Of a stretch of DNA of 64,000 nt, positions 13,601 to 55,005 are shown one piece after another. Position 1 is the first letter of the stretch; each line of letters starts with the position of its first letter. The translations under genes were made by a program, and so were the position numbers. Under the pieces are notes generated by a model, which worked only from the letters and a program-made list of their open reading frames with translations, had not been told where the DNA came from and did no database searches. Source of the stretch: the human T2T-CHM13v2.0 reference genome, Homo sapiens; assembly GCA_009914755.4 (NCBI GenBank), contig CP086569.2:40512001-40576000 (forward strand), written 5' to 3'.

Positions 13601-14189
13601 GAATGGAATCGAATGGAATGGAAGTGAATAGAATCGAACTAAATCGAATGGAGTGGAATTGATAGGAACGGAATGGAAAGGAATGCAATGATTTGGCATG
13701 GAATGGAATCGAATGGCATCGAATGGAATGGAATGGAATGCAATGGAATGGAATGTATTAGAATGTAATGAACTTTAATGGAATGTACTCGAATGGATTC
13801 GACTGGAATGGAATGTTCTGGAAGTGAATGGACTCCAATGGAATGGATTCAAAAGGAATGGAATCGTACGGAATGGAATCTAATGGAATGGAATTAAATG
13901 GAAATGAATCAAATTGAATAGCACGGAATTGAATTGAATGGAATCGAATGCAATGGAATCTAATGAAACGGAAAGGAAAGGAATGCAATGGAATGGAATG
14001 GGCTGGAATGGAAAGGAATCGAAACGAATGGAATGGAATCGAACTGAAGAGACTGGAATGGAATGCACTGGAATGGAAGGGAGTGTAATGGAAGGTTCTC
14101 GAAAAAAATGGAATCGAATGGAATGGAATTGAATGGAACGGAATAGAGTCGAATGGAATTGAATGGAATGGAATGGAGTAGAGTGAAAT
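10616..14189 (+). repeat. HOR unit 4 (3,574 bp); carries the 15-bp ggaagggaatcgaac duplication subfamily marker and a long pure (GGAAT)n tract
   Basis: Landmark at 10616. Extra GRESNGRESNG in the artefact ORF 10614..10964 reflects the 15-bp insertion near 10811-10825. Confidence 0.9.
13039..13086 (+). repeat. Near-pure (GGAAT)n microsatellite-like tract inside the HOR (length-variable between units)
   Basis: An uninterrupted aatggaatggaatgg... run. The same HOR position carries about 8 pentamers in unit 1 (about 2388-2426) and about 10 in unit 16 (about 53835-53886). Confidence 0.8.
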
Positions 14190-20700: not shown

Positions 20701-21315
20701 GGCTGGGTGTCGAAAGGAATTGACTCCAATGGAATGGAATCGAATGGAATGGAAGTGAATAGAATCGAACTAAATCGAATGGAATGGAATTGATAGGAAC
20801 GGAATGGAAAGGAATGCAATGATTTGGCATGGAATGGAATCGAATGGCATCGAATGGAATGGAATGCAATGGAATGGAATGTATTAGAATGTAATGAACA
20901 TTAATGGAATGTACTCGAATGGATTCGACTGGAATGGAATGTTCTGGAAGTGAATGGACTCCAATGGAATGGATTCGAAAGGAATGGAATCGAACGGAAT
21001 GGAATCTAATGGAATGGAATTAAATGGAAATGAATCAAATTGAATAGCACGGAATTGAATTGAATGGAATCGAATGCAATGGAATCTAATGAAACGGAAA
21101 GGAAAGGAATGGAATGGAATGGAATGGGCTGGAATGGAAAGGAATCGAAACGAATGGAATGGAATCGAACTGAAGAGACTGGAATGGAATGCACTGGAAT
21201 GGAAGGGAGTGTAATGGAAGGTTCTCGAAAATAATGGAAGCAAATGGAATGGAATTGAATGGAACGGAATAGAGTCGAATGGAATTGAATGGAATGGAAT
21301 GGACTAGAGTGAAAT
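17758..21315 (+). repeat. HOR unit 6 (3,558 bp); first unit of the 7.1 kb duplicated block
   Basis: Landmark at 17758. Identical artefact ORFs recur at +7,112 bp (for example 18227..19144 = 25339..26256). Confidence 0.9.
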
Positions 21316-24300
21316 GGAATCGAACCACAAGGAATGGACAGGAATAGAATGGTCTCGAATTGAATGGAATCGTATGGAATGGCATCAAACGGAATGGAAT
21401 GGACAGCCACGGAATGGAATGCACTCGAATGCAATGGAGTCGAAACTTATGGACTGGAATAGAATGGACTCGACTGGTACGGACTCCAATGGAATGGAAT
21501 CGAATGGAAGGGATTCGAACGGAATGGACTCGAAGGGAAAAGACTGCAATGGAAAGGTCTCGAATGGAATGGAAATTAATGGAATGGAATGGAATCGAAT
21601 GAAATGGAGTCAAAAGGAAAGGAATCGAATGGCAAGAAATCGAATGTAATGGAATCGCAAGGAATTGATGTGAACGGAACGGAATGGAATGGAATCCAAA
21701 GGAATGGAATAGAATGGAATGGAATCGAATGGAAAGGACTCGAATGGAAATCACTCGAATAGAATGCAATTTAATAAAATAGGATCAAATGTAATTGAAT
21801 AGAATGGAAAGGAATCGAAACGAAAGGAATGGAGACAGATGGAATGGAATGGAACAGAGAGCAATGGTATAGAATGGAATGGAATCATCTGGAATGGAAT
21901 TGAATGGAATGGAATAATATGAAATGGAATGGAATGGAATAGAATGGAATGCCCTTGAATTAAATGGACTGGAATGGAATGGACTCGAACAGAGTGGAAT
22001 GGAAAGTGTTGAGATAGAATGGAATGGACTCTTTTGGAATGGTCTAGTATGCAATGCAATCGACTGGCAGGGAATCAAAAGGAATGTAATCGAATGGATT
22101 AGACTGGAATGCAATGGACTCGAATAGATTGGAAACGGAATGCAAAGGAATGGAATGGAATAGTATGGAATGGAATGGAAAGGAATGGAGTGGAATAGAC
22201 TAGAGTGGAATGGAATGGACTGGAAAGCAATGGACTGGAATGGAACTTTCTTGAATGGACTGGAATCAAACGGAATGGAATGCAATGCAATCAAATGGCA
22301 TGGAATAAAATAGAATGAAAGAGAATCAAATGGAATTGAATCGAATGGAATCGAATGGATTGGAAAGGAATAGAATGGAATGGAATGGAATGGACTCAAA
22401 TGGAATGGACTAGAATGGAATGGATTCGAATGGAAGGCAAAGGAATGGAATCTATTGGAATGGACTGTAATGGAATGGAATGGAAGGGATTGGAATGGAC
22501 TCGAATGGAATGGACTGCAATAGAAAGGATTCGAATGGAATGAAAAAGAGTTGAATGGAATAGAACAGAATGGAATCAAATCGAATGAAATGGAATGGAA
22601 TAGAAAGGAATGGAATGAAATGGAATGGAAAGGATTCGAATGGAATGCAATCGAATGGAATGGAATCGAACGGAATGGAATAAAATGGAAGAAAACTGGC
22701 AAGAAATGGAATCGAAATGAATGGAGTGTTATGGAACGGACTCAAAAGGAATTGAATGTAATAGAATGGAGTGGAGTGGACTCGAATATAATGGACTGGA
22801 ATGGAATGAAATCACATGGAATGGGAACGAATGGAATGGAATGGAAAGGAATGGAATCGAATGGAAAGGAATCGAATGGAAGGGAATGAAATTGAATCAA
22901 CAGGAATGGAAGGGAATAGAATAGACGGTAATGGAATGGACTCGAATAGAATGGACACGAATGCTCAAATTGAATGGACTCGAATGGAATGGAAACGAAA
23001 GGAATGTCATCGAATGGAATTGAATCGATTGGAATGAAATCGCATAGAATGGAGTGGAATCAAATGGAATTGAATCGAAAGGAAAGGAAGCGAATGGACT
23101 GAAATGAAATGGAATGGAATTGAATGGAAAGTAATGCAATGGAATAGAATGGAACGAAATTTCACGGAATGGAATCAAACTGAATGGAATCAAATCAATG
23201 GAATCAAATCAAATGGAATGGAAAGGAATTGAATGGAGTAGATTGGATTGGATGGGATTGGAATGAAATGTACTGGAAAGGACTCGAATTTCATGAAACG
23301 GAATGGAATGAATTGGAACGGAATGGACTCGAATGGAATGGAATGTCATGGAATGGCATCAAATGGAATGGCATCAAATGGAATGGAATCGAATGCAATG
23401 GAATGCTATGGAATGGAATGGAATGCATTGGAATGGAATGTCCTCTAATGGAATGGATTCGAGTGGAATGGAATCGAATATAATGGAGTCGAATGAAATG
23501 GAATTGAAAGGAATGGGATCGAATACAATGGAATATACTGGAATGTAATGTAATGAACTCGAATGTAATTGACTGGAATGGAATGTACATGAATGGAATG
23601 TAATCGAATGGAAAGTAATCCAATGGAATAGAATCTAATGCAATAAAATCGACTCAGATAGAGTAGAATGTAATGGAATGGAGTGCAGTGCAATGGAATG
23701 GAATGGAATGGAATGCAATGGAATGGAATGGAATGGAATGGAATGGAATGGAATGGAATGGAATGGGATGGAATGGTATGGAATGGATAGTAATGGACTG
23801 GAGTGAAATGGACTGGAAAGGAATGGACTCAAATTGAAAGGGCTCGAAAGGAATGGATTCAAATGGAATGGTCTGAAATGGAATGAACACGAATGTAATG
23901 CAACCCAATAGAATGGAATCGAATGGCATGGAATGTAAAGAAATGGAATCGAAGAGAATGGAAACAAATGGAATGGAATTGAATGGAATGGGAACGAATG
24001 GAGTGAAATTGTATGCAGTAGAAGAGAATAGAATGGAATGCAAGCGAAAGGAAAGGAATGGATTGGAATGGAATGGAATTCATTGGAATGGAAGGGAATG
24101 TAGTGTAATGGACAGGCCTGGAATAAAGTGGAATGCTACGGTCTCGAATGGAATAAAAATGTATGGAATGGAATGCAATGAAACGGAATCGAATGTCATA
24201 GAATGTAATGGAATGCAAAAAAATGGAATCCAAAATCATTGACTGGAAAGTCTGGGTGTCGAAAGGAATTGACTCCAATGGAATGGAATCGAATGGAATG

Positions 24301-24869
24301 GAAGTGAATAGAATCGAACTAAATCGAATGGAATGGAATTGATAGGAACGGAATGGAAAGGAATGCAATGATTTGGCATGGAATGGAATCGAATGGCATC
24401 GAATGGAATGGAATGGAATGCAATGGAATGGAATGTATTAGAATGTAATGAACTTTAATGGAATGTACTCGAATGGATTCGACTGGAATGGAATGTTCTG
24501 GAAGTGAATGGACTCCAATGGAATGGATTCAAAAGGAATGGAATCGTACGGAATGGAATCTAATGGAATGGAATTAAATGGAAATGAATCAAATTGAATA
24601 GCACGGAATTGAATTGAATGGAATCGAATGCAATGGAATCTAATGAAACGGAAAGGAAAGGAATGCAATGGAATGGAATGGAATGGAATGCAAATGAATC
24701 GAAACGAATGGAATGGAATCGAACTGAAGAGACTGGAATGGAATGCACTGGAATGGAAGGGAGTGTCATGGAAGGTTCTCGAAAAAAATGGAATCGAATG
24801 GAATGGAATTGAATGGAACGGAATAGAGTCGAATGGAATTGAATGGAATGGAATGGACTAGAGTGAAAT
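21316..24869 (+). repeat. HOR unit 7 (3,554 bp); second unit of the 7.1 kb duplicated block
   Basis: Landmark at 21316. ORFs 21086..21769 and 28198..28881 are identical. Confidence 0.9.
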
Positions 24870-27800
24870 GGAATCGAACCACAAGGAATGGACAGGAATA
24901 GAATGGTCTCGAATTGAATGGAATCGTATGGAATGGCATCAAACGGAATGGAAAGGACAGCCACGGAATGGAATGCACTCGAATGCAACGGAGTCGAAAC
25001 TAATGGACTGGAATAGAATGGACTCGACTGGTACGGACTCCAATGGAATGGAATCGAATGGAAGTGAATCGAACGGAATGGACTCGAAGGGAAAAGACTG
25101 CAATGGAAAGGTCTCGAATGGAATGGAAATTAATGGAATGGAATGGAATCGAATGAAATGGAGTCAAAAGGAATGGAATCGAATGGCAAGAAATCGAATG
25201 TAATGGAATCGCAAGGAATTGATGTGAACGGAACGGAATGGAATGGAATCCAAAGGAATGGAATAGAATGGAATGGAATCGAATGGAAAGGACTGGAATG
25301 GAAATCACTCGAATAGAATGCAATTTAATAAAATAGGGTCAAATGTAATGGAATGGAATGGAAAGGAATCGAAACGAAAGGAATGGAGACAGATGGAATG
25401 GAATGGGACAGAGAGCAATGGTATAGAATGGAATGGAATCATCTGGAATGGAATTGAATGGAATGGAATAATATGAAATGGAATGGAATGGAATGGAATG
25501 GAATGCCCTTGAATTAAATGGACTGGAATGGAATGGACTCGAACAGAGTGGAATGGAAAGTGTTGAGATAGAATGGAATGGACTCTTTTGGAATGGTCTA
25601 GTATGCAATGCAATCGACTGGCAGGGAATCAAAAGGAATGTAATCGAATGGATTAGACTGGAATGCAATGGACTCGAATAGATTGGAAACGGAATGCAAA
25701 GGAATGGAATGGAATAGTATGGAATGGAATGGAAAGGAATGGAGTGGAATAGACTAGAGTGGAATGGAATGGACTGGAAAGCAATGGACTGGAATGGAAC
25801 TTTCTTGAATGGACTGGAATCAAACGGAATGGAATGCAATGCAATCAAATGGCATGGAATAAAATAGAATGAAAGAGAATCAAATGGAATTGAATCGAAT
25901 GGAATCGAATGGATTGGAAAGGAATAGAATGGAATGGAATGGAATTGACTCAAATGGAATGGACTAGAATGGAATGGATTCGAATGGAAGGCAAAGGAAT
26001 GGAATCTATTGGAATGGACTGTAATGGAATGGAATGGAAGGGATTGGAATGGACTCGAATGGAATGGACTGCAATAGAAAGGATTCGAATGGAATGAAAA
26101 AGAGTTGAATGGAATAGAACAGAATGGAATCAAATCGAATGAAATGGAATGGAATAGAAAGGAATGGAATGAAATGGAATGGAAAGGATTCGAATGGAAT
26201 GCAATCGAATGGAATGGAATCGAACGGAATGGAATAAAATGGAAGAAAACTGGCAAGAAATGGAATCGAAATGAATGGAGTGTTATGGAACGGACTCAAA
26301 AGGAATTGAATGTAATAGAATGGAGTGGAGTGGACTCGAATATAATGGACTGGAATGGAATGAAATCACATGGAATGGGAACGAATGGAATGGAATGGAA
26401 AGGAATGGAATCGAATGGAAAGGAATCGAATGGAAGGGAATGAAATTGAATCAACAGGAATGGAAGGGAATAGAATAGACGGTAATGGAATGGACTCGAA
26501 TAGAATGGACACGAATGCTCAAATTGAATGGACTCGAATGGAATGGAAACGAAAGGAATGTCATCGAATGGAATTGAATCGATTGGAATGAAATCGCATA
26601 GAATGGAGTGGAATCAAATGGAATTGAATCGAAAGGAAAGGAAGCGAATGGACTGAAATGAAATGGAATGGAATTGAATGGAAAGTAATGCAATGGAATA
26701 GAATGGAACGAAATTTCACGGAATGGAATCAAACTGAATGGAATCAAATCAATGGAATCAAATCAAATGGAATGGAAAGGAATTGAATGGAGTAGATTGG
26801 ATTGGATGGGATTGGAATGAAATGTACTGGAAAGGACTCGAATTTCATGAAACGGAATGGAATGAATTGGAACGGAATGGACTCGAATGGAATGGAATGT
26901 CATGGAATGGCATCAAATGGAATGGCATCAAATGGAATGGAATCGAATGCAATGGAATGCTATGGAATGGAATGGAATGCATTGGAATGGAATGTCCTCT
27001 AATGGAATGGATTCGAGTGGAATGGAATCGAATATAATGGAGTCGAATGAAAAGGAATTGAAAGAATGGGATCGAATACAATGGAATATACTGGAATGTA
27101 ATGTAATGAACTCGAATGTAATTGACTGGAATGGAATGTACATGAATGGAATGTAATCGAATGGAAAGTAATCCAATGGAATAGAATCTAATGCAATAAA
27201 ATCGACTCAGATAGAGTAGAATGTAATGGAATGGAGTGCAGTGCAATGGAATGGAATGGAATGGAATGCAATGGAATGGAATGGAATGGAATGGAATGGA
27301 ATGGAATGGAATGGGATGGAATGGTATGGAATGGATAGTAATGGACTGGAATGAAATGGACTGGAAAAGAATGGACTCAAATTGAAAGGGCTCGAAAGGA
27401 ATGGAGTCAAATGGAATGGTCTGGAATGGAATGAACACGAATGTAATGCAATCCAATAGAATGGAATCGAATGGCATGGAATATAAAGAAATGGAATCGA
27501 AGAGAATGGAAACAAATGGAATGGAATTGAATGGAATGGAATTGAATGGAATGGGAACGAATGGAGTGAAATTGTATGCAGTAGAAGAGAATAGAATGGA
27601 ATTCAAGCGAAAGGAAAGGAATGGATTGCAATGGAATGGAATTCATTGGAATGGAAGGGAATGTAGTGTAATGGACAGGCCTGGAATAAAGTGGAATGTT
27701 ACGGTCTCGAATGGAATAAAAATGTATGGAATGGAATGCAATGAAACGGAATCGAATGTCATAGAATGTAATGGAATGCAAAAAAATGGAATCCAAAATC

Positions 27801-28427
27801 ATTGACTGGAAAGGCTGGGTGTCGAAAGGAATTGACTCCAATGGAATGGAATCGAATGGAATGGAAGTGAATAGAATCGAACTAAATCGAATGGAATGGA
27901 ATTGATAGGAACGGAATGGAAAGGAATGCAATGATTTGGCATGGAATGGAATCGAATGGCATCGAATGGAATGGAATGCAATGGAATGGAATGTATTAGA
28001 ATGTAATGAACATTAATGGAATGTACTCGAATGGATTCGACTGGAATGGAATGTTCTGGAAGTGAATGGACTCCAATGGAATGGATTCGAAAGGAATGGA
28101 ATCGAACGGAATGGAATCTAATGGAATGGAATTAAATGGAAATGAATCAAATTGAATAGCACGGAATTGAATTGAATGGAATCGAATGCAATGGAATCTA
28201 ATGAAACGGAAAGGAAAGGAATGGAATGGAATGGAATGGGCTGGAATGGAAAGGAATCGAAACGAATGGAATGGAATCGAACTGAAGAGACTGGAATGGA
28301 ATGCACTGGAATGGAAGGGAGTGTAATGGAAGGTTCTCGAAAATAATGGAAGCAAATGGAATGGAATTGAATGGAACGGAATAGAGTCGAATGGAATTGA
28401 ATGGAATGGAATGGACTAGAGTGAAAT
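24870..28427 (+). repeat. HOR unit 8 (3,558 bp); near-identical copy of unit 6
   Basis: Landmark at 24870, which is 7,112 bp after the unit 6 landmark. Confidence 0.9.
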
Positions 28428-31400
28428 GGAATCGAACCACAAGGAATGGACAGGAATAGAATGGTCTCGAATTGAATGGAATCGTATGGAATGGCATCAA
28501 ACGGAATGGAATGGACAGCCACGGAATGGAATGCACTCGAATGCAATGGAGTCGAAACTTATGGACTGGAATAGAATGGACTCGACTGGTACGGACTCCA
28601 ATGGAATGGAATCGAATGGAAGGGATTCGAACGGAATGGACTCGAAGGGAAAAGACTGCAATGGAAAGGTCTCGAATGGAATGGAAATTAATGGAATGGA
28701 ATGGAATCGAATGAAATGGAGTCAAAAGGAATGGAATCGAATGGCAAGAAATCGAATGTAATGGAATCGCAAGGAATTGATGTGAACGGAACGGAATGGA
28801 ATGGAATCCAAAGGAATGGAATAGAATGGAATGGAATCGAATGGAAAGGACTCGAATGGAAATCACTCGAATAGAATGCAATTTAATAAAATAGGATCAA
28901 ATGTAATTGAATAGAATGGAAAGGAATCGAAACGAAAGGAATGGAGACAGATGGAATGGAATGGAACAGAGAGCAATGGTATAGAATGGAATGGAATCAT
29001 CTGGAATGGAATTGAATGGAATGGAATAATATGAAATGGAATGGAATGGAATAGAATGGAATGCCCTTGAATTAAATGGACTGGAATGGAATGGACTCGA
29101 ACAGAGTGGAATGGAAAGTGTTGAGATAGAATGGAATGGACTCTTTTGGAATGGTCTAGTATGCAATGCAATCGACTGGCAGGGAATCAAAAGGAATGTA
29201 ATCGAATGGATTAGACTGGAATGCAATGGACTCGAATAGATTGGAAACGGAATGCAAAGGAATGGAATGGAATAGTATGGAATGGAATGGAAAGGAATGG
29301 AGTGGAATAGACTAGAGTGGAATGGAATGGACTGGAAAGCAATGGACTGGAATGGAACTTTCTTGAATGGACTGGAATCAAACGGAATGGAATGCAATGC
29401 AATCAAATGGCATGGAATAAAATAGAATGAAAGAGAATCAAATGGAATTGAATCGAATGGAATCGAATGGATTGGAAAGGAATAGAATGGAATGGAATGG
29501 AATTGACTCAAATGGAATGGACTAGAATGGAATGGATTCGAATGGAAGGCAAAGGAATGGAATCTATTGGAATGGACTGTAATGGAATGGAATGGAAGGG
29601 ATTGGAATGGACTCGAATGGAATGGACTGCAATAGAAAGGATTCGAATGGAATGAAAAAGAGTTGAATGGAATAGAACAGAATGGAATCAAATCGAATGA
29701 AATGGAATGGAATAGAAAGGAATGGAATGAAATGGAATGGAAAGGATTCGAATGGAATGCAATCGAATGGAATGGAATCGAACGGAATGGAATAAAATGG
29801 AAGAAAACTGGCAAGAAATGGAATCGAAATGAATGGAGTGTTATGGAACGGACTCAAAAGGAATTGAATGTAATAGAATGGAGTGGAGTGGACTCGAATA
29901 TAATGGACTGGAATGGAATGAAATCACATGGAATGGGAACGAATGGAATGGAATGGAAAGGAATGGAATCGAATGGAAAGGAATCGAATGGAAGGGAATG
30001 AAATTGAATCAACAGGAATGGAAGGGAATAGAATAGACGGTAATGGAATGGACTCGAATAGAATGGACACGAATGCTCAAATTGAATGGACTCGAATGGA
30101 ATGGAAACGAAAGGAATGTCATCGAATGGAATTGAATCGATTGGAATGAAATCGCATAGAATGGAGTGGAATCAAATGGAATTGAATCGAAAGGAAAGGA
30201 AGCGAATGGACTGAAATGAAATGGAATGGAATTGAATGGAAAGTAATGCAATGGAATAGAATGGAACGAAATTTCACGGAATGGAATCAAACTGAATGGA
30301 ATCAAATCAATGGAATCAAATCAAATGGAATGGAAAGGAATTGAATGGAGTAGATTGGATTGGATGGGATTGGAATGAAATGTACTGGAAAGGACTCGAA
30401 TTTCATGAAACGGAATGGAATGAATTGGAACGGAATGGACTCGAATGGAATGGAATGTCATGGAATGGCATCAAATGGAATGGCATCAAATGGAATGGAA
30501 TCGAATGCAATGGAATGCTATGGAATGGAATGGAATGCATTGGAATGGAATGTCCTCTAATGGAATGGATTCGAGTGGAATGGAATCGAATATAATGGAG
30601 TCGAATGAAAAGGAATTGAAAGGAATGGGATCGAATACAATGGAATATACTGGAATGTAATGTAATGAACTCGAATGTAATTGACTGGAATGGAATGTAC
30701 ATGAATGGAATGTAATCGAATGGAAAGTAATCCAATGGAATAGAATCTAATGCAATAAAATCGACTCAGATAGAGTAGAATGTAATGGAATGGAGTGCAG
30801 TGCAATGGAATGGAATGGAATGGAATGCAATGGAATGGAATGGAATGGAATGGAATGGAATGGAATGGAATGGAATGGAATGGGATGGAATGGTATGGAA
30901 TGGATAGTAATGGACTGGAATGAAATGGACTGGAAATGAATGGACTCAAATTGAAAGGGCTCGAAAGGAATGGAGTCAAATGGAATGGTCTGGAATGGAA
31001 TGAACACGAATGTAATGCAATCCAATAGAATGGAATCGAATGGCATGGAATATAAAGAAATGGAATCGAAGAGAATGGAAACAAATGGAATGGAATTGAA
31101 TGGAATGGAATTGAATGGAATGGGAACGAATGGAGTGAAATTGTATGCAGTAGAAGAGAATAGAATGGAATTCAAGCGAAAGGAAAGGAATGGATTGCAA
31201 TGGAATGGAATTCATTGGAATGGAAGGGAATGTAGTGTAATGGACAGGCCTGGAATAAAGTGGAATGTTACGGTCTCGAATGGAATAAAAATGTATGGAA
31301 TGGAATGCAATGAAACGGAATCGAATGTCATAGAATGTAATGGAATGCAAAAAAATGGAATCCAAAATCATTGACAGGAAAGGCTGGGTGTCGAAAGGAA

Positions 31401-42620: not shown

Positions 42621-45600
42621 GGAATCGAACCACAAGGAATGGACAGGAATAGAATGGTCTCGAATTGAATGGAATCGTATGGAATGGCATCAAACGGAAT
42701 GGAATGGACAGCCACGGAATGGAATGCACTCGAATGCAATGGAGTCGAAACTAATGGACTGGAATAGAATGGACTCGACTGGTACGGACTCCAATGTAAT
42801 GGAATCGAATGGAAGGGAATCGAACGGAAGGGAATCGAACGGAATGGACTCGAAGGGAAAAGACTGCAATGGAAAGGTCTCGAATGGAATGGAAATTAAT
42901 GGAATGGAATGGAATCGAATGAAATGGAGTCAAAAGGAATGGAATCGAATGGCAAGAAATCGAATGTAATGGAATCGCCAGGAATTGATGTGAACGGAAC
43001 GGAATGGAATGGAATCCAAAGGAATGGAATAGAATGGAATGGAATCGAATGGAAAGGACTCGAATGGAAATCACTCGAATAGAATGCAATTTAATAAAAT
43101 AGGATCAAATGTAATGGAATGGAATGGAAAGGAATCGAAAGAAAGGAATGGAGACAGATGGAATGGAATGGAACAGAGAACAATGGTATAGAATGGAATG
43201 GAATCATCTGGAATGGAATTGAATGGAATGGAATAATATGAAATGGAATGGAATGGAATGGAATGGAATGCCCTTGAATTAAATGGACTGGAATGGAATG
43301 GACTCAAACAGAGTGGAATGGAAAGTGTGGAGATAGAATGGAATGAACTCCTTTGGAATGGTGTAGTATGCAATGCAATCGACTGGCAGGGAATCAAAAG
43401 GAATGTAATCGAATGGATTGGACTGGAATGCAATGGACTCGAATAGATTGGAAACGGAATGCAAAGGAATGGAATGGAATAGTATGGAATGCAATGGAAG
43501 GGAATGGAGTGGAATAGACTAGAGTGGAATGGAATGGACTGGAAAGCAATGGACTGGAATGGAACTTTCTTGGATGGACTGGAATCAAACGGAATGGAAT
43601 GCAATGCAATCAAATGGCATGGAATAAAATAGAATGAAAGAGAATCAAATGGAATTGAATCGAATGGAATCGAATGGATTGGAAAGGAATAGAATGGAAT
43701 GGAATGGAATTGACTCAAATGGAATGGACTAGAATGGAATGGATTCGAATGGAAGGCAAAGGAATGGAATCTATTGGAATGGACTGTAATGGAATGGAAT
43801 GGAAGGGATTGGAATGGACTCGAATGGAATGGACTGCAATAGAAAGGATTCGAATGGAATGAAAAAGAATTGAATGGAATAGAACAGAATGGAATCAAAT
43901 CGAATGAAATGGAATGGAATAGAAAGGAATGGAATGAAATGGAATGGAAAGGATTCGAATGGAATGCAATCGAATGGAATGGAATCGAACGGAATGGAAT
44001 AAAATGGAAGAAAACTGGCAAGAAATGGAATCGAAATGAATGGAGTGTTATGGAACGGACTCAAAAGGAATTGAATGTAATAGAATGGAGTGGAGTGGAC
44101 TCGAATATAATGGACTGGAATGGAATGAAATCACATGGAATGGGAACGAATGGAATGGAATGGAAAGGAATGGAATCGAATGGAAAGGAATCGAATGGAA
44201 GGGAATGAAATTGAATCAACAGGAATGGAAGGGAATAGAATAGACGGTAATGGAATGGACTCGAATAGAATGGACACGAATGCTCAAATTAAATGGACTC
44301 GAATGGAATGGAAACGAAAGGAATGTCATCGAATGGAATTGAATCGATTGGAATGAAATCGCATAGAATGGAGTGGAATCAAATGGAATTGAATCGAAAG
44401 GAAAGGAAGCGAATGGACTGAAATGAAATGGAATGGAATTGAATGGAAAGTAATGCAATGGAATAGAATGGAACGAAATTTCACGGAATGGAATCAAACT
44501 GAATGGAATCAAATCAATGGAATCTAATCAAATGGAATGGAAAGGAATTGAATGGAGTAGATGGGATTGGATGGGATTGGAATGAAATGTACTGGAAAGG
44601 ACTCGAATTTCATGAAACGGAATGGAATGAATTGGAACGGAATGGACTCGAATGGAATGGAATGTCATGGGATGGCATCAAATGGAATGACATCAAATGG
44701 AATGGAATCGAATGCAATGGAATGCTATGGAATGGAATGGAATGCATTAGAATGGAATGTCCTCTAATGGAATGGATTCGAGTGGAATGGAATCGAATAT
44801 AATGGAGTCGAATGAAATGGAATTGAAAGGAATGGGATCGAATACAATGGAATATACTGGAATGTAACGTAATGAACTCGAATGTAATTGACTGGAATGG
44901 AATGTACATGAATGGAATGTAATCGAATGGAAAGTAATCGAATGGAATAGAATCTAATGCAATAAAATCGACTCAGATAGAGTAGAATGTAATGGAATGG
45001 AGTGCAGTGCAATGGAATGGAATGGAATGGAATGCAATGGAATGGAATGGAATGGAATGGAATGGAATGGAATGGGATGGAATGGTATGGAATGGATAGT
45101 AATGGACTGGAGTGAAATGGACTGGAAAGGAATGGACTCAAATTGAAAGGGCTCGAAAGGAATGGAGTCAAATGGAATGGTCTGGAATGGAATGAACACG
45201 AATGTAATGCAACCCAATAGAATGGAATCGAATGGCATGGAATATAAAGAAATGGAATCGAAGAGAATGGAAACAAATGGAATGGAATTGAATGGAATGG
45301 AATTGAATGGAATGGGAACGAATGGAGTGAAATTGTATGCAGTAGAAGAGAATAGAATGGAATGCAAGCGAAAGGAAAGGAATGGATTGGAATGGAATGG
45401 AATTCATTGGAATGGAAGGGAATGTAGTGTAATGGACAGGCCTGGAATAAAGTGGAATGCTACGGTCTCGAATGGAATAAAAATGTATGGAATGGAATGC
45501 AATGAAACGGAATCGAATGTCATAGAATGTAATGGAATGCAAAAAAATGGAATCCAAAATCATTGACTGGAAAGGCTGGGTGTCGAAAGGAATTGACTCC

Positions 45601-46178
45601 AATGGAATGGAATCGAATGAAATGGAAGTGAATAGAATCGAACTAAATCGAATGGAATGGAATTGATAGGAACGGAATGGAAAGGAATGCAATGATTTGG
45701 CATGGAATGGAATCGAATGGCATCGAATGGAATGGAATGGAATGCAATGGAATGGAATGTATTAGAATGTAATGAACTTTAATGGAATGTACTCGAATGG
45801 ATTCGACTGGAATGGAATGTTCTGGAAGTGAATGGACTCCAATGGAATGGATTCCAAAGGAATGGAATCGTACGGAATGGAATCTAATGGAATGGAATTA
45901 AATGGAAATGAATCAAATTGAATAGCACGGAATTGAATTGAATGGAATGGAATGCAATGGAATCTAATGAAACGGAAAGGAAAGGAATGGAATGGAATGG
46001 AATGGGCTGGAATGGAAAGGAATCGAAACGAATGGAATGGAATCGAAGTGAAGAGACTGCAATGGAATGCACTGGAATGGAAAGTTCTCGAAAAAAATGG
46101 AATCGAATGGAATGGAATTGAATGGAACGGAATAGTGTCGAATGGAATTGAATGGAATGGAATGGACTAGAGTGAAAT
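42621..46178 (+). repeat. HOR unit 13 (3,558 bp)
   Basis: Landmark at 42621. Confidence 0.9.
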
Positions 46179-48797
46179 GGAATCGAACCACAAGGAATGG
46201 ACAGGAATAGAATGGTCTCGAATTGAATGGAATCGTATGGAATGGCATCAAACGGAATGGAATGGACAGCCACGGAATGGAATGCACTCGAATGCAATGG
46301 AGTCGAAACTAATGGACTGGAATAGAATGGACTCGACTGGTACGGACTCCAATGGAATGGAATCGAATGGAAGGGAATCGAACGGAAGGGAATCGAACGG
46401 AATGGACTCGAAGGGAAAAGACTGCAATGGAAAGGTCTCGAATTGAATGGAAATTAATGGAATGGAATGGAATCGAATGAAATGGAGTCAAAAGGAATGG
46501 AATCGAATGGCAAGAAATCGAATGTAATGGAATCGCCAGGAATTGATGTGAACGGAACGGAATGGAATGGAATCCAAAGGAATGGAATAGAATGGAATGG
46601 AATCGAATGGAAAGGACTCGAATGGAAATCACTCGAATAGAATGCAATTTAATAAAATAGGATCAAATGTAATGGAATGGAATGGAAAGGAATCGAAACG
46701 AAAGGAATGGAGACAGATGGAATGGAATGGAACAGAGAGCAATGGTATAGAATGGAATGGAATCATCTGGAATGGAATTGAATGGAATGGAATAATATGA
46801 AATGGAATGGAATGGAATGGAATGGAATGCCCTTGAATTAAATGGACTGGAATGGAATGGACTCAAACAGAGTGGAATGGAAAGTGTGGAGATAGAATGG
46901 AATGAACTCCTTTGGAATGGTGTAGTTTGCAATGCAATCGACTGGCAGGGAATCAAAAGGAATGTAATCGAATGGATTGGACTGGAATGCAATGGACTCG
47001 AATAGATTGGAAACGGAATGCAAAGGAATGGAATGGAATAGTATGGAATGCAATGGAAGGGAATGGAGTGGAATAGACTAGAGTGGAATGGAATGGACTG
47101 GAAAGCAATGGACTGGAATGGAACTTTCTTGGATGGACTGGAATCAAACGGAATGGAATGCAATGCAATCAAATGGCATGGAATAAAATAGAATGAAAGA
47201 GAATCAAATGGAATTGAATCGAATGGAATCGAATGGATTGGAAAGGAATAGAATGGAATGGAATGGAATTGACTCAAATGGAATGGACTAGAATGGAATG
47301 GATTCGAATGGAAGGCAAAGGAATGGAATCTATTGGAATGGACTGTAATGGAATGGAATGGAAGGGATTGGAATGGACTCGAATGGAATGGACTGCAATA
47401 GAAAGGATTCGAATGGAATGAAAAAGAATTGAATGGAATAGAACAGAATGGAATCAAATCGAATGAAATGGAATGGAATAGAAAGGAATGGAATGAAATG
47501 GAATGGAAAGGATTCGAATGGAATGCAATCGAATGGAATGGAATCGAACGGAATGGAATAAAATGGAAGAAAACTGGCAAGAAATGGAATCGAAATGAAT
47601 GGAGTGTTATGGAACGGACTCAAAAGGAATTGAATGTAACAGAATGGAGTGGAGTGGACTCGAATATAATGGACTGGAATGGAATGAAATCACATGGAAT
47701 GGGAACGAATGGAATGGAATGGAAAGGAATGGAATCGAATGGAAAGGAATCGAATGGAAGGGAATGAAATTGAATCAACAGGAATGGAAGGGAATAGAAT
47801 AGACTGTAATGGAATGGACTCGAATAGAATGGACACGAATGCTCAAATTAAATGGACTCGAATGGAATGGAAACGAAAGGAATGTCATCGAATGGAATTG
47901 AATCGATTGGAATGAAATCGCATAGAATGGAGTGGAATCAAATGGAATTGAATCGAAAGGAAAGGAAGCGAATGGACTGAAATGAAATGGAATGGAATTG
48001 AATGGAAAGTAATGCAATGGAATAGAATGGAACGAAATTTCACGGAATGGAATCAAACTGAATGGAATCAAATCAATGGAATCAAATCAAATGGAATGGA
48101 AAGGAATTGAATGGAGTAGATGGGATTGGATGGGATTGGAATGAAATGTACTGGAAAGGACTCGAATTTCATGAAACGGAATGGAATGAATTGGAACGGA
48201 ATGGACTCGAATGGAATGGAATGTCATGGGATGGCATCAAATGTAATGGCATCAAATGGAATGGAATCGAATGCAATGGAATGCTATGGAATGGAATGGA
48301 ATGCATTGGAATGGAATGTCCTCTAATGGAATGGATTCGAGTGGAATGGAATCGAATATAATGGAGTCGAATGAAATGGAATTGAAAGGAATGGGATCGA
48401 ATACAATGGAATATACTGGAATGTAACGTAATGAACTCGAATGTAATTGACTGGAATGGAATGTACATGAATGGAATGTAATCGAATGGAAAGTAATCGA
48501 ATGGAATAGAATCTAATGCAATAAAATCGACTCAGATAGAGTAGAATGTAATGGAATGGAGTGCAGTGCAATGGAATGGAATGGAATGGAATGCAATGGA
48601 ATGGAATGGGCTGGAATGGAAAGGAATCGAAACGAATGGAATGGAATCGAACTGAAGAGACTGGAATGGAATGCACTGGAATGGAAGGGAGTGTAATGGA
48701 AGGTTCTCGAAAAAAATGGAATCGAATGGAATGGAATTGAATGGAACGGAATAGAGTCGAATGGAATTGAATGGAATGGAATGGACTAGAGTGAAAT
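46179..48797 (+). repeat. HOR unit 14, short variant (2,619 bp) with a ~939 bp internal deletion
   Basis: Landmark at 46179 and the next at 48798. The segment from about HOR +2,420 to about +3,360 is absent. That segment normally holds the pure (GGAAT)n tract, the GGCC site and the ctgggtgtcgaaagg block. Confidence 0.88.
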
Positions 48798-51416
48798 GGA
48801 ATCGAACCACAAGGAATGGACAGGAATAGAATGGTCTCGAATTGAATGGAATCGTATGGAATGGCATCAAACGGAATGGAATGGACAGCCACGGAATGGA
48901 ATGCACTCGAATGCAATGGAGTCGAAACTAATGGACTGGAATAGAATGGACTCGACTGGTACGGACTCCAATGGAATGGAATCGAATGGAAGGGAATCGA
49001 ACGGAAGGGAATCGAACGGAATGGACTCGAAGGGAAAAGACTGCAATGGAAAGGTCTCGAATGGAATGGAAATTAATGGAATGGAATGGAATCGAATGAA
49101 ATGGAGTCAAAAGGAATCGAATCGAATGGCAAGAAATCGAATGTAATGGAATCGCAAGGAATTGATGTGAACGGAACGGAATGGAATGGAATCCAAAGGA
49201 ATGGAATAGAATGGAATGGAATCGAATGGAAAGGACTCGAATGGAAATCACTCGAATAGAATGCAATTTAATAAAATAGGATCAAATGTAATGGAATGGA
49301 ATGGAAAGGAATCGAAACGAAAGGAATGGAGACAGATGGAATGGAATGGAACAGAGAGCAATGGTATAGAATGGAATGGAATCATCTGGAATGGAATTGA
49401 ATGGAATGGAATAATATGAAATGGAATGGAATGGAATGGAATGGAATGCCCTTGAATTAAATGGACTGGAATGGAATGGACTCAAACAGAGTGGAATGGA
49501 AAGTGTGGAGATAGAATGGAATGAACTCCTTTGGAATGGTGTAGTATGCAATGCAATCGACTGGCAGGGAATCAAAAGGAATGTAATCGAATGGATTGGA
49601 CTGGAATGCAATGGACTCGAATAGATTGGAAACGGAATGCAAAGGAATGGAATGGAATAGTATGGAATGCAATGGAAGGGAATGGAGTGGAATAGACTAG
49701 AGTGGAATGGAATGGACTGGAAAGCAATGGACTGGAATGGAACTTTCTTGGATGGACTGGAATCAAACGGAATGGAATGCAATGCAATCAAATGGCATGG
49801 AATAAAATAGAATGAAAGAGAATCAAATGGAATTGAATCGAATGGAATCGAATGGATTGGAAAGGAATAGAATGGAATGGAATGGAATTGACTCAAATGG
49901 AATGGACTAGAATGGAATGGATTCGAATGGAAGGCAAAGGAATGGAATCTATTGGAATGGACTGTAATGGAATGGAATGGAAGGGATTGGAATGGACTCG
50001 AATGGAATGGACTGCAATAGAAAGGATTCGAATGGAATGAAAAAGAATTGAATGGAATAGAACAGAATGGAATCAAATCGAATGAAATGGAATGGAATAG
50101 AAAGGAATGGAATGAAATGGAATGGAAAGGATTCGAATGGAATGCAATCGAATGGAATGGAATCGAACGGAATGGAATAAAATGGAAGAAAACTGGCAAG
50201 AAATGGAATCGAAATGAATGGAGTGTTATGGAACGGACTCAAAAGGAATTGAATGTAACAGAATGGAGTGGAGTGGACTCGAATATAATGGACTGGAATG
50301 GAATGAAATCACATGGAATGGGAACGAATGGAATGGAATGGAAAGGAATGGAATCGAATGGAAAGGAATCGAATGGAAGGGAATGAAATTGAATCAACAG
50401 GAATGGAAGGGAATAGAATAGACTGTAATGGAATGGACTCGAATAGAATGGACACGAATGCTCAAATTAAATGGACTCGAATGGAATGGAAACGAAAGGA
50501 ATGTCATCGAATGGAATTGAATCGATTGGAATGAAATCGCATAGAATGGAGTGGAATCAAATGGAATTGAATCGAAAGGAAAGGAAGCGAATGGACTGAA
50601 ATGAAATGGAATGGAATTGAATGGAAAGTAATGCAATGGAATAGAATGGAACGAAATTTCACGGAATGGAATCAAACTGAATGGAATCAAATCAATGGAA
50701 TCAAATCAAATGGAATGGAAAGGAATTGAATGGAGTAGATGGGATTGGATGGGATTGGAATGAAATGTACTGGAAAGGACTCGAATTTCATGAAACGGAA
50801 TGGAATGAATTGGAACGGAATGGACTCGAATGGAATGGAATGTCATGGGATGGCATCAAATGTAATGGCATCAAATGGAATGGAATCGAATGCAATGGAA
50901 TGCTATGGAATGGAATGGAATGCATTGGAATGGAATGTCCTCTAATGGAATGGATTCGAGTGGAATGGAATCGAATATAATGGAGTCGAATGAAATGGAA
51001 TTGAAAGGAATGGGATCGAATACAATGGAATATACTGGAATGTAACGTAATGAACTCGAATGTAATTGACTGGAATGGAATGTACATGAATGGAATGTAA
51101 TCGAATGGAAAGTAATCGAATGGAATAGAATCTAATGCAATAAAATCGACTCAGATAGAGTAGAATGTAATGGAATGGAGTGCAGTGCAATGGAATGGAA
51201 TGGAATGGAATGCAATGGAATGGAATGGGCTGGAATGGAAAGGAATCGAAACGAATGGAATGGAATCGAACTGAAGAGACTGGAATGGAATGCACTGGAA
51301 TGGAAGGGAGTGTAATGGAAGGTTCTCGAAAAAAATGGAATCGAATGGAATGGAATTGAATGGAACGGAATAGAGTCGAATGGAATTGAATGGAATGGAA
51401 TGGACTAGAGTGAAAT
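48798..51416 (+). repeat. HOR unit 15, short variant (2,619 bp); near-identical tandem copy of unit 14
   Basis: Landmark at 48798. Artefact ORFs 48323..48916 and 50942..51535 are identical at an offset of exactly 2,619 bp. Confidence 0.88.
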
Positions 51417-54400
51417 GGAATCGAACCACAAGGAATGGACAGGAATAGAATGGTCTCGAATTGAATGGAATCGTATGGAATGGCATCAAACGGAATGGAA
51501 TGGACAGCCACGGAATGGAATGCACTCGAATGCAATGGAGTCGAAACTAATGGACTGGAATAGAATGGACTCGACTGGTACGGACTCCAATGGAATGGAA
51601 TCGAATGGAAGGGAATCGAACGGAAGGGAATCGAACGGAATGGACTCGAAGGGAAAAGACTGCAATGGAAAGGTCTCGAATGGAATGGAAATTAATGGAA
51701 TGGAATGGAATCGAATGAAATGGAGTCAAAAGGAATCGAATCGAATGGCAAGAAATCGAATGTAATGGAATCGCCAGGAATTGATGTGAACGGAACGGAA
51801 TGGAATGGAATCCAAAGGAATGGAATAGAATGGAATGGAATCGAATGGAAAGGACTCGAATGGAAATCACTCGAATAGAATGCAATTTAATAAAATAGGA
51901 TCAAATGTAATGGAATGGAATGGAAAGGAATCGAAACGAAAGGAATGGAGACAGATGGAATGGAATGGAACAGAGAGCAATGGTATAGAATGGAATGGAA
52001 TCATCTGGAATGGAATTGAATGGAATGGAATAATATGAAATGGAATGGAATGGAATGGAATGGAATGCCCTTGAATTAAATGGACTGGAATGGAATGGAC
52101 TCAAACAGAGTGGAATGGAAAGTGTGGAGATAGAATGGAATGAACTCCTTTGGAATGGTGTAGTATGCAATGCAATAGACTGGCAGGGAATCAAAAGGAA
52201 TGTAATCGAATGGATTGGACTGGAATGCAATGGACTCGAATAGATTGGAAACGGAATGCAAAGGAATGGAATGGAATAGTATGGAATGCAATGGAAGGGA
52301 ATGGAGTGGAATAGACTAGAGTGGAATGGAATGGACTGGAAAGCAATGGACTGGAATGGAACTTTCTTGGATGGACTGGAATCAAACGGAATGGAATGCA
52401 ATGCAGTCAAATGGCATGGAATAAAATAGAATGAAAGAGAATCAAATGGAATTGAATCGAATGGAATCGAATGGATTGGAAAGGAATAGAATGGAATGGA
52501 ATGGAATTGACTCAAATGGAATGGACTAGATTGGAATGGATTCGAATGGAAGGCAAAGGAATGGAATCTATTGGAATGGACTGTAATGGAATGGAATGGA
52601 AGGGATTGGAATGGACTCGAATGGAATGGACTGCAATAGAAAGGATTCGAATGGAATGAAAAAGAATTGAATGGAATAGAACAGAATGGAATCAAATCGA
52701 ATGAAATGGAATGGAATAGAAAGGAATGGAATGAAATGGAATGGAAAGGATTCGAATGGAATGCAATCGAATGGAATGGAATCGAACGGAATGGAATAAA
52801 ATGGAAGAAAACTGGCAAGAAATGGAATCGAAATGAATGGAGTGTTATGGAACGGACTCAAAAGGAATTGAATGTAACAGAATGGAGTGGAGTGGACTCG
52901 AATATAATGGACTGGAATGGAATGAAATCACATGGAATGGGAACGAATGGAATGGAATGGAAAGGAATGGAATCGAATGGAAAGGAATCGAATGGAAGGG
53001 AATGAAATTGAATCAACAGGAATGGAAGGGAATAGAATAGACGGTAATGGAATGGACTCGAATAGAATGGACACGAATGCTCAAATTAAATGGACTCGAA
53101 TGGAATGGAAACGAAAGGAATGTCATCGAATGGAATTGAATCGATTGCAATGAAATCGCATAGAATGGAGTGGAATCAAATGGAATTGAATCGAAAGGAA
53201 AGGAAGCGAATGGACTGAAATGAAATGGAATGGAATTGAATGGAAAGTAATGCAATGGAATAGAATGGAACGAAATTTCACGGAATGGAATCAAACTGAA
53301 TGGAATCAAATCAATGGAATCAAATCAAATGGAATGGAAAGGAATTGAATGGAGTAGATGGGATTGGATGGGATTGGAATGAAATGTACTGGAAAGGACT
53401 CGAATTTCATGAAACGGAATGGAATGAATTGGAACGGAATGGACTCGAATGGAATGGAATGTCATGGGATGGCATCAAATGTAATGGCATCAAATGGAAT
53501 GGAATCGAATGCAATGGAATGCTATGGAATGGAATGGAATGCATTGGAATGGAATGTCCTCTAATGGAATGGATTCGAGTGGAATGGAATTGAATATAAT
53601 GGAGTCGAATGAAATGGAATTGAAAGGAATGGGATCGAATACAATGGAATATACTGGAATGTAACGTTATGAACTCGAATGTAATTGACTGGAATGGAAT
53701 GTACATGAATGGAATGTAATCGAATGGAAAGTAATCCAATGGAATAGAATCTAATGCAATAAAATCGACTCAGATAGAGTAGAATGTAATGGAATGGAGT
53801 GCAGTGCAATGGAATGGAATGGAATGGAATGCAATGGAATGGAATGGAATGGAATGGAATGGAATGGAATGGAATGGAATGGAATGGGATGGAATGGTAT
53901 GGAATGGATAGTAATGGACTGGAGTGAAATGGACTGGAAAGGAATGGACTCAAATTGAAAGGGCTCGAAAGGAATGGAGTCAAATGGAATGGTCTGGAAT
54001 GGAATGAACACGAATGTAATGCAACCCAATAGAATGGAATCGAATGGCATGGAATATAAAGAAATGGAATCGAAGAGAATGGAAACAAATGGAATGGAAT
54101 TGAATGGAATGGAATTGAATGGAATGGGAACGAATGGAGGGAAATTGTATGCAGTAGAAGAGAATAGAATGGAATGCAAGCGAAAGGAAAGGAATGGATT
54201 GGAATGGAATGGAATTCATTGGAATGGAAGGGAATGTAGTGTAATGGACAGGCCTGGAATAAAGTGGAATGCTACGGTCTCGAATGGAATAAAAATACAT
54301 GGAATGGAATGCAATGAAACGGAATCGAATGTCATAGAATGTAATGGAATGCAAAAAAATGGAATCCAAAATCATTGACTGGAAAGTCTGGGAGTCGAAA

Positions 54401-55005
54401 GGAATTGACTCCAATGGAATGGAATCGAATGGAATGGAAGTGAATAGAATCGAACTAAATCGAATGGAATGGAATTGATAGGAACGGAATGGAAAGGAAT
54501 GCAATGATTTGGCATGGAATGGAATCGAATGGCATCGAATGGAATGGAATGGAATGCAATGGAATGGAATGTATTAGAATGTAATGAACTTTAATGGAAT
54601 GTACTCGAATGGATTCGACTGGAATGGAATGTTCTGGAAGTGAATGGACTCCAATGGAATGGATTCAAAAGGAATGGAATCGTACGGAATGGAATCTAAT
54701 GGAATGGAATTAAATGGAAATGAATCAAATTGAATAGCACGGAATTAAATTGAATGGAATCGAATGCAATGGAATCTAATGAAACGGAAAGGAAAGGAAT
54801 GCAATGGAATGGAATGGGCTGGAATGGAAAGGAATCGAAACGAATGGAATGGAATCGAACTGAAGAGACTGGAATGGAATGCACTGGAATGGAAGGGAGT
54901 GTAATGGAAGGTTCTCGAAAAAAATGGAATCGAATGGAATGGAATTGAATGGAACGGAATAGAGTCGAATGGAATTGAATGGAATGGAATGGACTAGAGT
55001 GAAAT
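51417..55005 (+). repeat. HOR unit 16 (3,589 bp, longest; long pure (GGAAT)n tract around 53835-53886)
   Basis: Landmark at 51417. It is full length again, with a GGCC site near 54251. Confidence 0.9.

What the first reader, a model, noticed from the sequence alone, without database searches (positions are those of the whole stretch)
46179..51416. Deletion-derived 2,619 bp HOR variant, tandemly duplicated; breakpoint sits in (AATGG)n microhomology and removes the HaeIII site
In the sequence: units 14 and 15 are each 2,619 bp and about 99.8% identical to each other. The junction (about 48590-48612, repeated about 51209-51231) reads gcaatggaatggaatgg|gctggaatggaaaggaatcgaaacg. This joins the start of the pure (GGAAT)n tract at HOR +~2,420 directly to sequence normally found about 190 bp before the next landmark. 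About 939 bp is lost, including the (GGAAT)n tract, the GGCC site and the ctgggtgtcgaaagg island. Flanking unit 16 is full length but shares the unit 14/15 SNP haplotype at its start (ORF 51415..51765 = 48796..49146). This suggests the deletion arose once on this haplotype and was then copied by unequal exchange. Predicted consequence: one anomalous ~8.8 kb HaeIII fragment (GGCC at ~45439 to GGCC at ~54251).
Basis: seen in the sequence. Interest (0 to 1): 0.55.

Follow-up and report, generated by a model that had tools for sequence, protein, structure and literature searches.

The report
Short DYZ1 satellite unit, tandemly duplicated
Two neighbouring copies of the human Y-chromosome DYZ1 satellite repeat have each lost the same 970 bp between two identical 22-bp sequences and were then copied side by side; this is a real but ordinary by-product of how satellite arrays evolve.

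Summary
The window holds 18.5 tandem DYZ1/HSat3A6 units of 3,533-3,589 bp. Units 14 (46179-48797) and 15 (48798-51416) are each 2,619 bp and differ at 4 bases. They lack the GGCC site, which leaves an 8,812-bp HaeIII fragment (45439 to 54251).

The interpretation (one deletion, then tandem duplication) is supported, with three refinements.

1. The breakpoint cannot be placed to the base. It lies within a perfect 22-bp direct repeat, GGAATGCAATGGAATGGAATGG. Flanking unit 16 carries this repeat twice, 970 bp apart. Deleting that interval in silico gives exactly 2,619 bp, gaplessly collinear with units 14 and 15.
2. The loss is 970 bp relative to unit 16. The figure of 939 bp is only the net length difference from unit 13.
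3. Unit 15 is a clean hybrid: like unit 16 up to offset 749 and like unit 14 from offset 761. In the duplicon phase 46928-49546 / 49547-52165 the copies differ at one base. This is the signature of one unequal exchange.

Short DYZ1 units and variable HaeIII fragments are already documented, and no function is implied. Interest is low.

The parts
46179..48797 (+). Short DYZ1 unit 14 (2,619 bp)
   Evidence: Landmark spacing. MAFFT shows a single 980-column gap. Gapless match to unit 16 minus 970 bp, with 11 mismatches.
48798..51416 (+). Short DYZ1 unit 15 (2,619 bp). A hybrid: it matches unit 16 at offsets 266, 321 and 749, and unit 14 at offsets 761-2321.
48588..48609 (+). Deletion junction in unit 14: the single retained copy of the 22-bp direct repeat GGAATGCAATGGAATGGAATGG. 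The breakpoint lies somewhere inside it.
   Evidence: context printout; alignment.
51207..51228 (+). Identical deletion junction in unit 15
53826..53847 (+). Left copy of the 22-bp direct repeat in full-length unit 16 (unit offset 2410), at the start of the pure (AATGG)n tract
54796..54817 (+). Right copy of the 22-bp direct repeat in unit 16 (unit offset 3380). It exists because of a local G-to-C variant at 54802.
   Evidence: The C variant was seen in 0 of 15 external DYZ1 contigs.
53848..54817 (+). The 970-bp interval of unit 16 that corresponds to the sequence missing from units 14 and 15. It holds the (AATGG)n tract, the 154-bp Y1.1/Y1.2 PCR target and the GGCC site at 54251.
46928..49546 (+). 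Best-phase duplicon, copy 1
   Evidence: A 2,619-bp window at lag 2,619 reaches its minimum of 1 mismatch for starts 46928-46939. There is an exact run of 2,228 bp from 46928 to 49155.
49547..52165 (+). Best-phase duplicon, copy 2. It differs from copy 1 at one paired position, 49156 in copy 1 against 51775 in copy 2.
49546..49558 (+). Inferred crossover interval of the unequal exchange inside unit 15, where it switches from unit-16-like to unit-14-like
   Evidence: Three-way SNP table.
45439..54254 (.). The 8,812-bp interval between consecutive GGCC (HaeIII) sites that spans the two short units
13980..14001 (+). The same right-hand 22-bp repeat (C variant) in full-length unit 4.

Best explanation
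The window is a stretch of the human Y-chromosome DYZ1 (HSat3A6) satellite. Two events explain the short units.

Event 1 (deletion). A full-length unit carried the 22-bp sequence GGAATGCAATGGAATGGAATGG twice in direct orientation, 970 bp apart. One copy sat at the start of the pure (AATGG)n tract. The other sat about 190 bp before the unit end and was created or lengthened by a local G-to-C variant. The intervening 970 bp and one repeat copy were lost. The process was a homology-guided one: replication slippage, single-strand annealing, or out-of-register sister-chromatid exchange. The sequence cannot tell these apart. The product was a 2,619-bp unit without the HaeIII site.

Event 2 (duplication). 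An unequal sister-chromatid exchange (or an equivalent template switch), misaligned by one short unit, paired the head of the next full unit (now unit 16) with the head of the short unit. It crossed over about 750 bp into the unit. This produced a second short unit (unit 15) with the head of unit 16 and the body and junction of unit 14.

Shown: collinearity, the flanking direct repeats, the identical junctions and the hybrid SNP pattern. Inferred: the molecular pathway, the order of events and their timing. No biological function is implied. This is neutral satellite turnover.
For: DYZ1 identity. The whole window has period 5 with consensus GGAAT. The repeat is about 3.56 kb with one GGCC per unit, and four fragments are 3,569 bp; Hallast et al. 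report 3,569 bp as the modal HaeIII fragment. Published DYZ1 primers B-G of PMC3925983 hit about once per unit at the expected spacing. GC is 38.8% and CpG density 1 per 34.7 bp, against 38% and 1 per 35 bp reported for DYZ1. The window is 98-99% identical and collinear with independent contaminant DYZ1 contigs.

Deletion. There is a single gap in the unit alignment. Removing the interval between the two 22-mers of unit 16 gives exactly 2,619 bp, with only 9-11 substitutions against units 14 and 15 and no indel. All readable external copies of the left flank continue into the normal tract, so the full length is ancestral.

Single origin plus duplication. Units 14 and 15 are the second-closest pair of all units, with 4 differences, and their junctions are identical. 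The tails of units 14, 15 and 16 are identical. Eleven informative sites partition with one switch point: 3 sites match unit 16 and the next 8 match unit 14, which is 1 ordering of 165. In the shifted phase only 1 mismatch remains in 2,619 bp.

Plausibility of the mechanism. De novo whole-unit gains and losses occur about once per Y transmission in Yq12, in the neighbouring DYZ2 arrays. Unequal sister-chromatid crossing over is the accepted model for Yq12. A perfect 5,160-bp repeat at lag 7,112 shows that such exchanges were recent in this same array.
Against: No reads are available, so an assembly error cannot be excluded directly. One DYZ1 unit holds 32 pairs of exact direct repeats of at least 22 bp that lie at least 100 bp apart, including a 35-bp pair. 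Homology at the breakpoint is therefore nearly unavoidable and says little about the pathway or about why this site was used. No allele other than the deletion itself is exclusive to units 14 and 15. Only one site (offset 321) positively favours the hybrid model over private mutations in unit 14; the rest of the support is positional clustering (p about 0.007). The last part of segment A in the short units carries a G at alignment column 2320 (unit offset 2321) that is shared with units 11 and 13 but not unit 16. The parental haplotype is therefore a mosaic that the two-event model does not explain.
Confidence: 0.74

Rival explanations
1. Gene conversion rather than crossover. A single deleted unit converted its full-length neighbour, copying the junction and about 1.9 kb of flanking sequence, without changing the number of units.
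For: 29% of de novo Yq12 SNVs look like interlocus gene conversion. The identical stretch shared by units 14 and 15 (offset 750 to the end, including the junction) could be a conversion tract. The mosaic ancestry of the short unit shows that patchwise exchange does occur here.
Against: The required tract is at least 1,870 bp and must carry a 970-bp heterology, which is long for conversion. The lag-2,619 identity continues past the unit boundary into the head of unit 16, as a simple unequal exchange predicts.
Confidence: 0.15
2. Two independent deletions at the same 22-bp repeats in adjacent, closely related units (a recurrent hotspot).
For: The 22-bp direct repeats would give an identical junction each time. 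No SNP is exclusive to units 14 and 15.
Against: The other full units that carry both 22-mers (4, 5, 7, 16) are not deleted. None of the external sites with enough downstream sequence shows the junction. Units 14 and 15 are identical over 1,870 bp around the junction, while other adjacent units differ at roughly 8-46 sites.
Confidence: 0.04
3. Assembly artefact: the short units do not exist in the individual's DNA.
For: Yq12 is among the hardest regions to assemble, and graph-path errors in tandem repeats have been reported. No reads were available here.
Against: The two short units carry different SNPs and sit between units with distinct haplotypes. A 22-bp repeat is far too short to mislead long-read overlap. 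A collapse usually removes whole units rather than a within-unit interval bounded by direct repeats. About 5% of DYZ1 units in seven complete assemblies are shorter than 3 kb.
Confidence: 0.06
4. The 2.6-kb unit is a distinct repeat family, for example the 2.7-kbp repeat of the Yq11/Yq12 transition zone, and not a deleted DYZ1 unit.
For: The size is similar to the 2.7-kbp repeat, which is 77% DYZ1-derived.
Against: The 2.7-kbp repeat contains a 23% DYZ18-derived part. Here 100% of the short unit is collinear with a DYZ1 unit at 99.6% identity with no foreign segment, and it is embedded in ordinary DYZ1 units.
Confidence: 0.01

Closest known systems
DYZ1 / HSat3A6 3.56-kb HaeIII repeat of human Yq12 (Nakahori 1986 unit; T2T-Y and Hallast et al. 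2023 descriptions)
   Same: Pentamer GGAAT base, about 3.56-kb period, one HaeIII site per unit, matching primer sites, GC and CpG content, and 98-99% identity to independent copies.
   Different: Units 14 and 15 lack 970 bp, including the HaeIII site and the classic 154-bp PCR target.
Short DYZ1 units and variable virtual-HaeIII fragments reported for seven complete Yq12 assemblies (Hallast et al. supplement)
   Same: That work reports DYZ1 units of 1,165-3,608 bp, with about 5% under 3 kb, and HaeIII fragments from under 25 bp to over 200 kb. The 2,619-bp units and the 8.8-kb fragment fall inside that range.
   Different: The text I could read gives length statistics only. It gives no breakpoints, no mechanism for individual variants and no mention of a 2,619-bp class.
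Structural-variant higher-order repeats in alpha-satellite arrays (deleted or hybrid HORs spread locally by unequal exchange)
   Same: The same logic applies: an in-array deletion between internally homologous positions creates a shorter unit, which is then amplified locally. This rests on established knowledge of satellite evolution and was not tested here.
   Different: The satellite family is different. Alpha-satellite has a 171-bp monomer and deletions occur in monomer register. Here the register is a 5-bp pentamer and the homology is 22 bp.
Alu insertions in Yq12 repeat units used as markers of local expansion (Hallast et al.)
   Same: A rare unit-internal marker is copied to neighbouring units by unequal sister-chromatid exchange.
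   Different: The marker here is a deletion rather than an insertion, and there are only two copies.

Membership tests
DYZ1 / HSat3A6 satellite | Built from diverged GGAAT/ATTCC pentamers | tested here: met
   TRF finds period 5 with consensus GGAAT over 16-64000.
DYZ1 / HSat3A6 satellite | Higher-order unit of about 3.56 kb with a single HaeIII (GGCC) site | tested here: met
   Sixteen full units of 3,533-3,589 bp. There is one GGCC per unit, plus one extra site at 12585. Four fragments are 3,569 bp, the modal size in Hallast et al..
DYZ1 / HSat3A6 satellite | Published DYZ1-specific primer sites at the published relative positions | tested here: met
   Primers B-G of PMC3925983 Table 5 hit most or all units (10-19 units exactly, 15-19 with at most 1 mismatch) at offsets consistent with their published coordinates, on the reverse strand. 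Primers A and H do not match with 1 mismatch or fewer. The Kogan Y1.1/Y1.2 primers, recalled from memory, match exactly and give a 154-bp product in all 16 full units.
DYZ1 / HSat3A6 satellite | Base composition of about 38% GC and about 1 CpG per 35 bp | tested here: met
   38.8% GC and 1 CpG per 34.7 bp, compared with the values.
DYZ1 / HSat3A6 satellite | Located in Yq12, in blocks that alternate with DYZ2/HSat1B | not testable with these tools
   No DYZ2 lies within the 64 kb, and no human reference genome was available.
Direct-repeat-mediated deletion (slippage, SSA or out-of-register exchange) | The deleted interval is flanked by identical direct repeats in the intact form, and exactly one copy is retained at the junction | tested here: met
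   The 22-bp repeats lie at 53826 and 54796 in unit 16, with a single copy at 48588 and at 51207. The simulated deletion gives 2,619 bp.
Direct-repeat-mediated deletion (slippage, SSA or out-of-register exchange) | Homology at the breakpoint exceeds what the local sequence would give anyway | tested here: not met
   One unit holds 32 pairs of exact repeats of at least 22 bp that lie at least 100 bp apart, and a 35-bp pair shares the same left site. The homology is expected background.
Tandem duplication by unequal sister-chromatid exchange | The new copy is a hybrid of its two neighbours with one switch point, and the copies are near-identical in the duplicon phase | tested here: met
   Three sites match unit 16 and the next eight match unit 14, with one private site. 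One mismatch in 2,619 bp remains in phase 46928/49547.
2.7-kbp Yq11/Yq12 transition repeat (2k7bp) | About 23% of the unit is derived from DYZ18 | tested here: not met
   The short unit is entirely collinear with DYZ1 unit 16 minus 970 bp and has no foreign segment.

The most novel reading that the evidence does not exclude
The local G-to-C variant that creates the right-hand 22-bp repeat makes this site a recurrent deletion hotspot. On this reading, 2,619-bp HaeIII-less, Y1.1/Y1.2-negative units form a lineage-specific DYZ1 subfamily elsewhere in Yq12. Such a subfamily could serve as a structural Y-haplogroup marker, and it would be undercounted by the classic 154-bp DYZ1 PCR or qPCR.
Probability: 0.12. 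Interest if true: 0.3.

Novelty: new member of a known kind. Interest (0 to 1): 0.15.

Why it matters
The finding gives a base-level worked example of how Yq12 satellite arrays change: a within-unit deletion between short direct repeats, followed by an unequal exchange whose crossover can be mapped to a 12-bp interval. It has small practical consequences. The two units are invisible to the classic 154-bp DYZ1 PCR target (primers recalled from memory; exact matches in all 16 full units, none in the short ones) and to HaeIII-based unit counting. The 72-nt junction is a unique tag inside an otherwise near-identical array, so it could anchor read mapping or trace this block across related Y chromosomes. 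It does not bear on any open biological question, and short DYZ1 units are already known as a class.

Tried and rejected
(1) I searched for the exact 64-nt junction in genome contigs and metagenome contigs, and for a gapped 72-nt version in viral contigs. All returned 0 hits.

(2) Positive controls with the left flank alone returned 9 + 25 contaminant DYZ1 contigs, so the first two nulls mean "uncommon". The viral collection holds no DYZ1 at all, so its null says nothing.

(3) None of the 34 loci has any junction variant. Four loci (L006, L018, L024, L032) diverge after the left flank. They are short-read contigs of 73-95% identity, most likely chimeras or other HSat3 loci. I did not pursue them.

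(4) DNA folding of both breakpoints and of the junction gave no significant Watson-Crick structure (z between -1.6 and +0.7). The nearest-neighbour model does not cover the G·A-paired (AATGG)n hairpins known from the literature, so this neither supports nor excludes slippage.

(5) An Rfam scan of the whole window found nothing.

(7) A literature search for the Kogan primer strings found no paper. That match therefore rests on my memory of the primers.

(8) I considered the 2.7-kbp transition repeat and rejected it.
Full report
**What the window is**

The whole 64 kb is one tandem array based on the pentamer GGAAT (TRF period 5 over 16-64000). A 40-nt landmark recurs 19 times and defines 16 full units of 3,533-3,589 bp, two short units and one partial unit. 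Each full unit has one GGCC site; unit 4 has an extra one at 12585. Four HaeIII fragments are exactly 3,569 bp, which Hallast et al. report as the modal DYZ1 fragment.

Six of eight published DYZ1 primers (PMC3925983, Table 5) match the reverse strand about once per unit at the expected relative positions. The classic Y1.1/Y1.2 primers, which I recalled from memory and could not find in the paper library, match exactly and give a 154-bp product in all 16 full units. GC is 38.8% and CpG density is 1 per 34.7 bp, matching the 38% and 1 per 35 bp reported for DYZ1. Independent contaminant contigs in bacterial and metagenome records are collinear with a window unit at 96-99% identity. The T2T-Y paper describes this kind of contamination.

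I file the window as human DYZ1/HSat3A6. Its chromosomal location could not be tested.

**Check of the observation**

- Units 14 (46179-48797) and 15 (48798-51416) are each 2,619 bp.
- They differ at 4 positions with no indel, which is 99.85% identity.
- In a MAFFT alignment of all units each shows one 980-column gap and nothing else.
- No GGCC lies between 45439 and 54251. That interval is 8,812 bp = 3,574 + 2 x 2,619.
- The Y1.1/Y1.2 target and CTGGGTGTCGAAAGG are missing from both short units.

**The breakpoint**

It also occurs at 13985 (unit 4) and 54801 (unit 16), inside full-length units.

The reason is a 22-bp sequence, GGAATGCAATGGAATGGAATGG. Every unit has it at about offset 2400, at the start of the pure (AATGG)n tract. 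Units 4, 5, 7 and 16 have it again at about offset 3350-3380, because of a G-to-C variant there.

In unit 16 the two copies are at 53826 and 54796, exactly 970 bp apart. Deleting that interval in silico gives a sequence of exactly 2,619 bp. It aligns without gaps to units 14 and 15, with 11 and 9 substitutions.

Three consequences follow:

- The deletion is collinear.
- It is 970 bp on the matching haplotype.
- The breakpoint lies anywhere within the retained 22-mer (48588-48609 and 51207-51228).

The C variant was absent from all 15 readable right-hand sites in external contigs, so it is a local polymorphism of this array. Because the junction has the GC in exactly the register of unit 16's right-hand copy, a C-variant parent is the parsimonious substrate.

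One caveat applies. A single unit holds 32 pairs of exact direct repeats of at least 22 bp that lie at least 100 bp apart, including a 35-bp pair that shares the same left site. Homology at the junction is therefore expected background. It does not identify the pathway.

**Polarity**

Full length is ancestral. All other units in the window are full length. Every external copy of the left flank with enough downstream sequence runs into the normal tract or, in four loci, diverges without reaching the right flank. None of the 34 loci carries any junction variant, and the longer contigs are collinear through the interval. No contig in the genome or metagenome collections carries the junction.

**One origin and the duplication**

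Over the shared columns, units 14 and 15 are the second-closest of all 153 unit pairs; only units 6 and 8 are closer. The tails of units 14, 15 and 16 are identical.

A three-way comparison of the first 2,431 bp of units 14, 15 and 16 shows 12 variable sites:

| Offsets | Unit 15 matches |
|---|---|
| 266, 321, 749 | unit 16 |
| 359 | neither (private to unit 15) |
| 761, 990, 1115, 1627, 1732, 2175, 2252, 2321 | unit 14 |

One switch point, between offsets 749 and 761 (window 49546-49558), explains all 11 informative sites. That is 1 ordering of 165.

A 2,619-bp window compared at lag 2,619 reaches a minimum of one mismatch for starts 46928-46939. An exact run of 2,228 bp crosses the unit 14/15 boundary.

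This is what one unequal exchange predicts if the head of unit 16 paired with the head of a single short unit. Unit 15 would then be the head of unit 16 joined to the body of unit 14.

The support has limits. Only offset 321 positively requires the hybrid, because offsets 266 and 749 could be private mutations in unit 14. The clustering of all four unit 14/15 differences in the first 29% of the unit has p of about 0.007.

Unit 14 does not share it.

**Timing (inference)**

I used the pedigree estimate of 3.86e-7 changes per bp per generation for Yq12.

- One difference in 2,619 bp puts the duplication at roughly 500 generations, with a Poisson range of tens to a few thousand.
- The short unit differs from unit 16 at 11 sites and from unit 13 at 10 sites in segment A. 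The deletion is therefore older, or the parent unit is no longer adjacent.
- The end of segment A in the short units carries a G (alignment column 2320, unit offset 2321) that is shared only with units 11 and 13. This mosaic is left unexplained by the two-event model. It is consistent with the frequent gene conversion reported for Yq12.

**Rivals**

- Gene conversion instead of crossover cannot be excluded from sequence alone. It needs a tract of at least 1.9 kb that carries a 970-bp heterology.
- Independent recurrent deletions are unlikely. Four other units have both 22-mers and are intact, and the two short units are identical for 1,870 bp around the junction.
- An assembly artefact is unlikely, given the distinct SNPs in the two copies and the 22-bp homology. 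It is untestable without reads.
- The 2.7-kbp transition repeat is excluded, because the short unit has no DYZ18-like part.

**Comparison with what is known**

The Hallast et al. supplement reports DYZ1 units of 1,165-3,608 bp, with 95% above 3 kb. It reports virtual HaeIII fragments from under 25 bp to over 200 kb, and attributes array dynamics to unequal sister-chromatid crossing over, with conversion and slippage possible. T2T-Y reaches the same conclusion. De novo whole-unit changes occur about once per Y transmission.

The present case is one well-resolved instance of a documented class. I found no text that describes a 2,619-bp variant or its breakpoints.

**Other checks**

There is no Rfam match. 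No significant predicted DNA secondary structure appears at the breakpoints. ORFs in the region are compositional artefacts of the repeat.

**Verdict**

Nothing here implies a function, and the novelty is low.

Noticed in passing
window 16460-21619 and 23572-28731: A perfect 5,160-bp repeat at lag 7,112 with 0 mismatches. Units 6 and 8 show no substitutions in the unit alignment, and the B and C segments of units 5 and 7 show none either. This is a very recent two-unit (dimer) duplication, younger than the short-unit duplication.
   Followed up: partly
window 12585: An extra GGCC site in unit 4 splits its HaeIII fragment into 2,723 + 850 bp. It is a second HaeIII anomaly in the window.
   Followed up: no
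window ~42520 and ~46080 (tails of units 12 and 13; alignment columns 3481-3495): Units 12 and 13 share a 15-bp (three-pentamer) deletion, AATGGAAGGGAGTGT.
   Followed up: partly
window 13986, 17554, 24666, 54802: A G-to-C variant creates a second GCAATGG landmark near the unit end in units 4, 5, 7 and 16. It was absent from 15 of 15 external DYZ1 copies, so it is a local array polymorphism, and it supplies the 22-bp deletion substrate.
   Followed up: yes
whole window, units 1-18: There are two unit haplogroups: units 1-3, 6-9 and 11, against units 4, 5, 10 and 12-18. They differ at about 25-35 sites over 2.4 kb and are interleaved in the first half of the window.
   Followed up: no
unit 16, offsets 2396 and 3121 (window ~53812 and ~54537): A 35-bp perfect direct repeat shares the same left site as the deletion. 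It would yield a unit of about 2,864 bp if used. One unit has 32 repeat pairs of at least 22 bp, so deletion substrates are abundant.
   Followed up: no
loci L001-L034: Human DYZ1 sequence is present as contamination in 9 bacterial genome records (Actinomadura, Streptomyces, Vibrio, Azospirillum and others) and in 25 metagenome contigs. Several contigs are about 3.6 kb, i.e. one collapsed unit.
   Followed up: partly
window ~54388 (unit 16): Full-length unit 16 lacks an exact CTGGGTGTCGAAAGG island, presumably because of a SNP. That motif alone is therefore not a reliable marker of full-length units.
   Followed up: no
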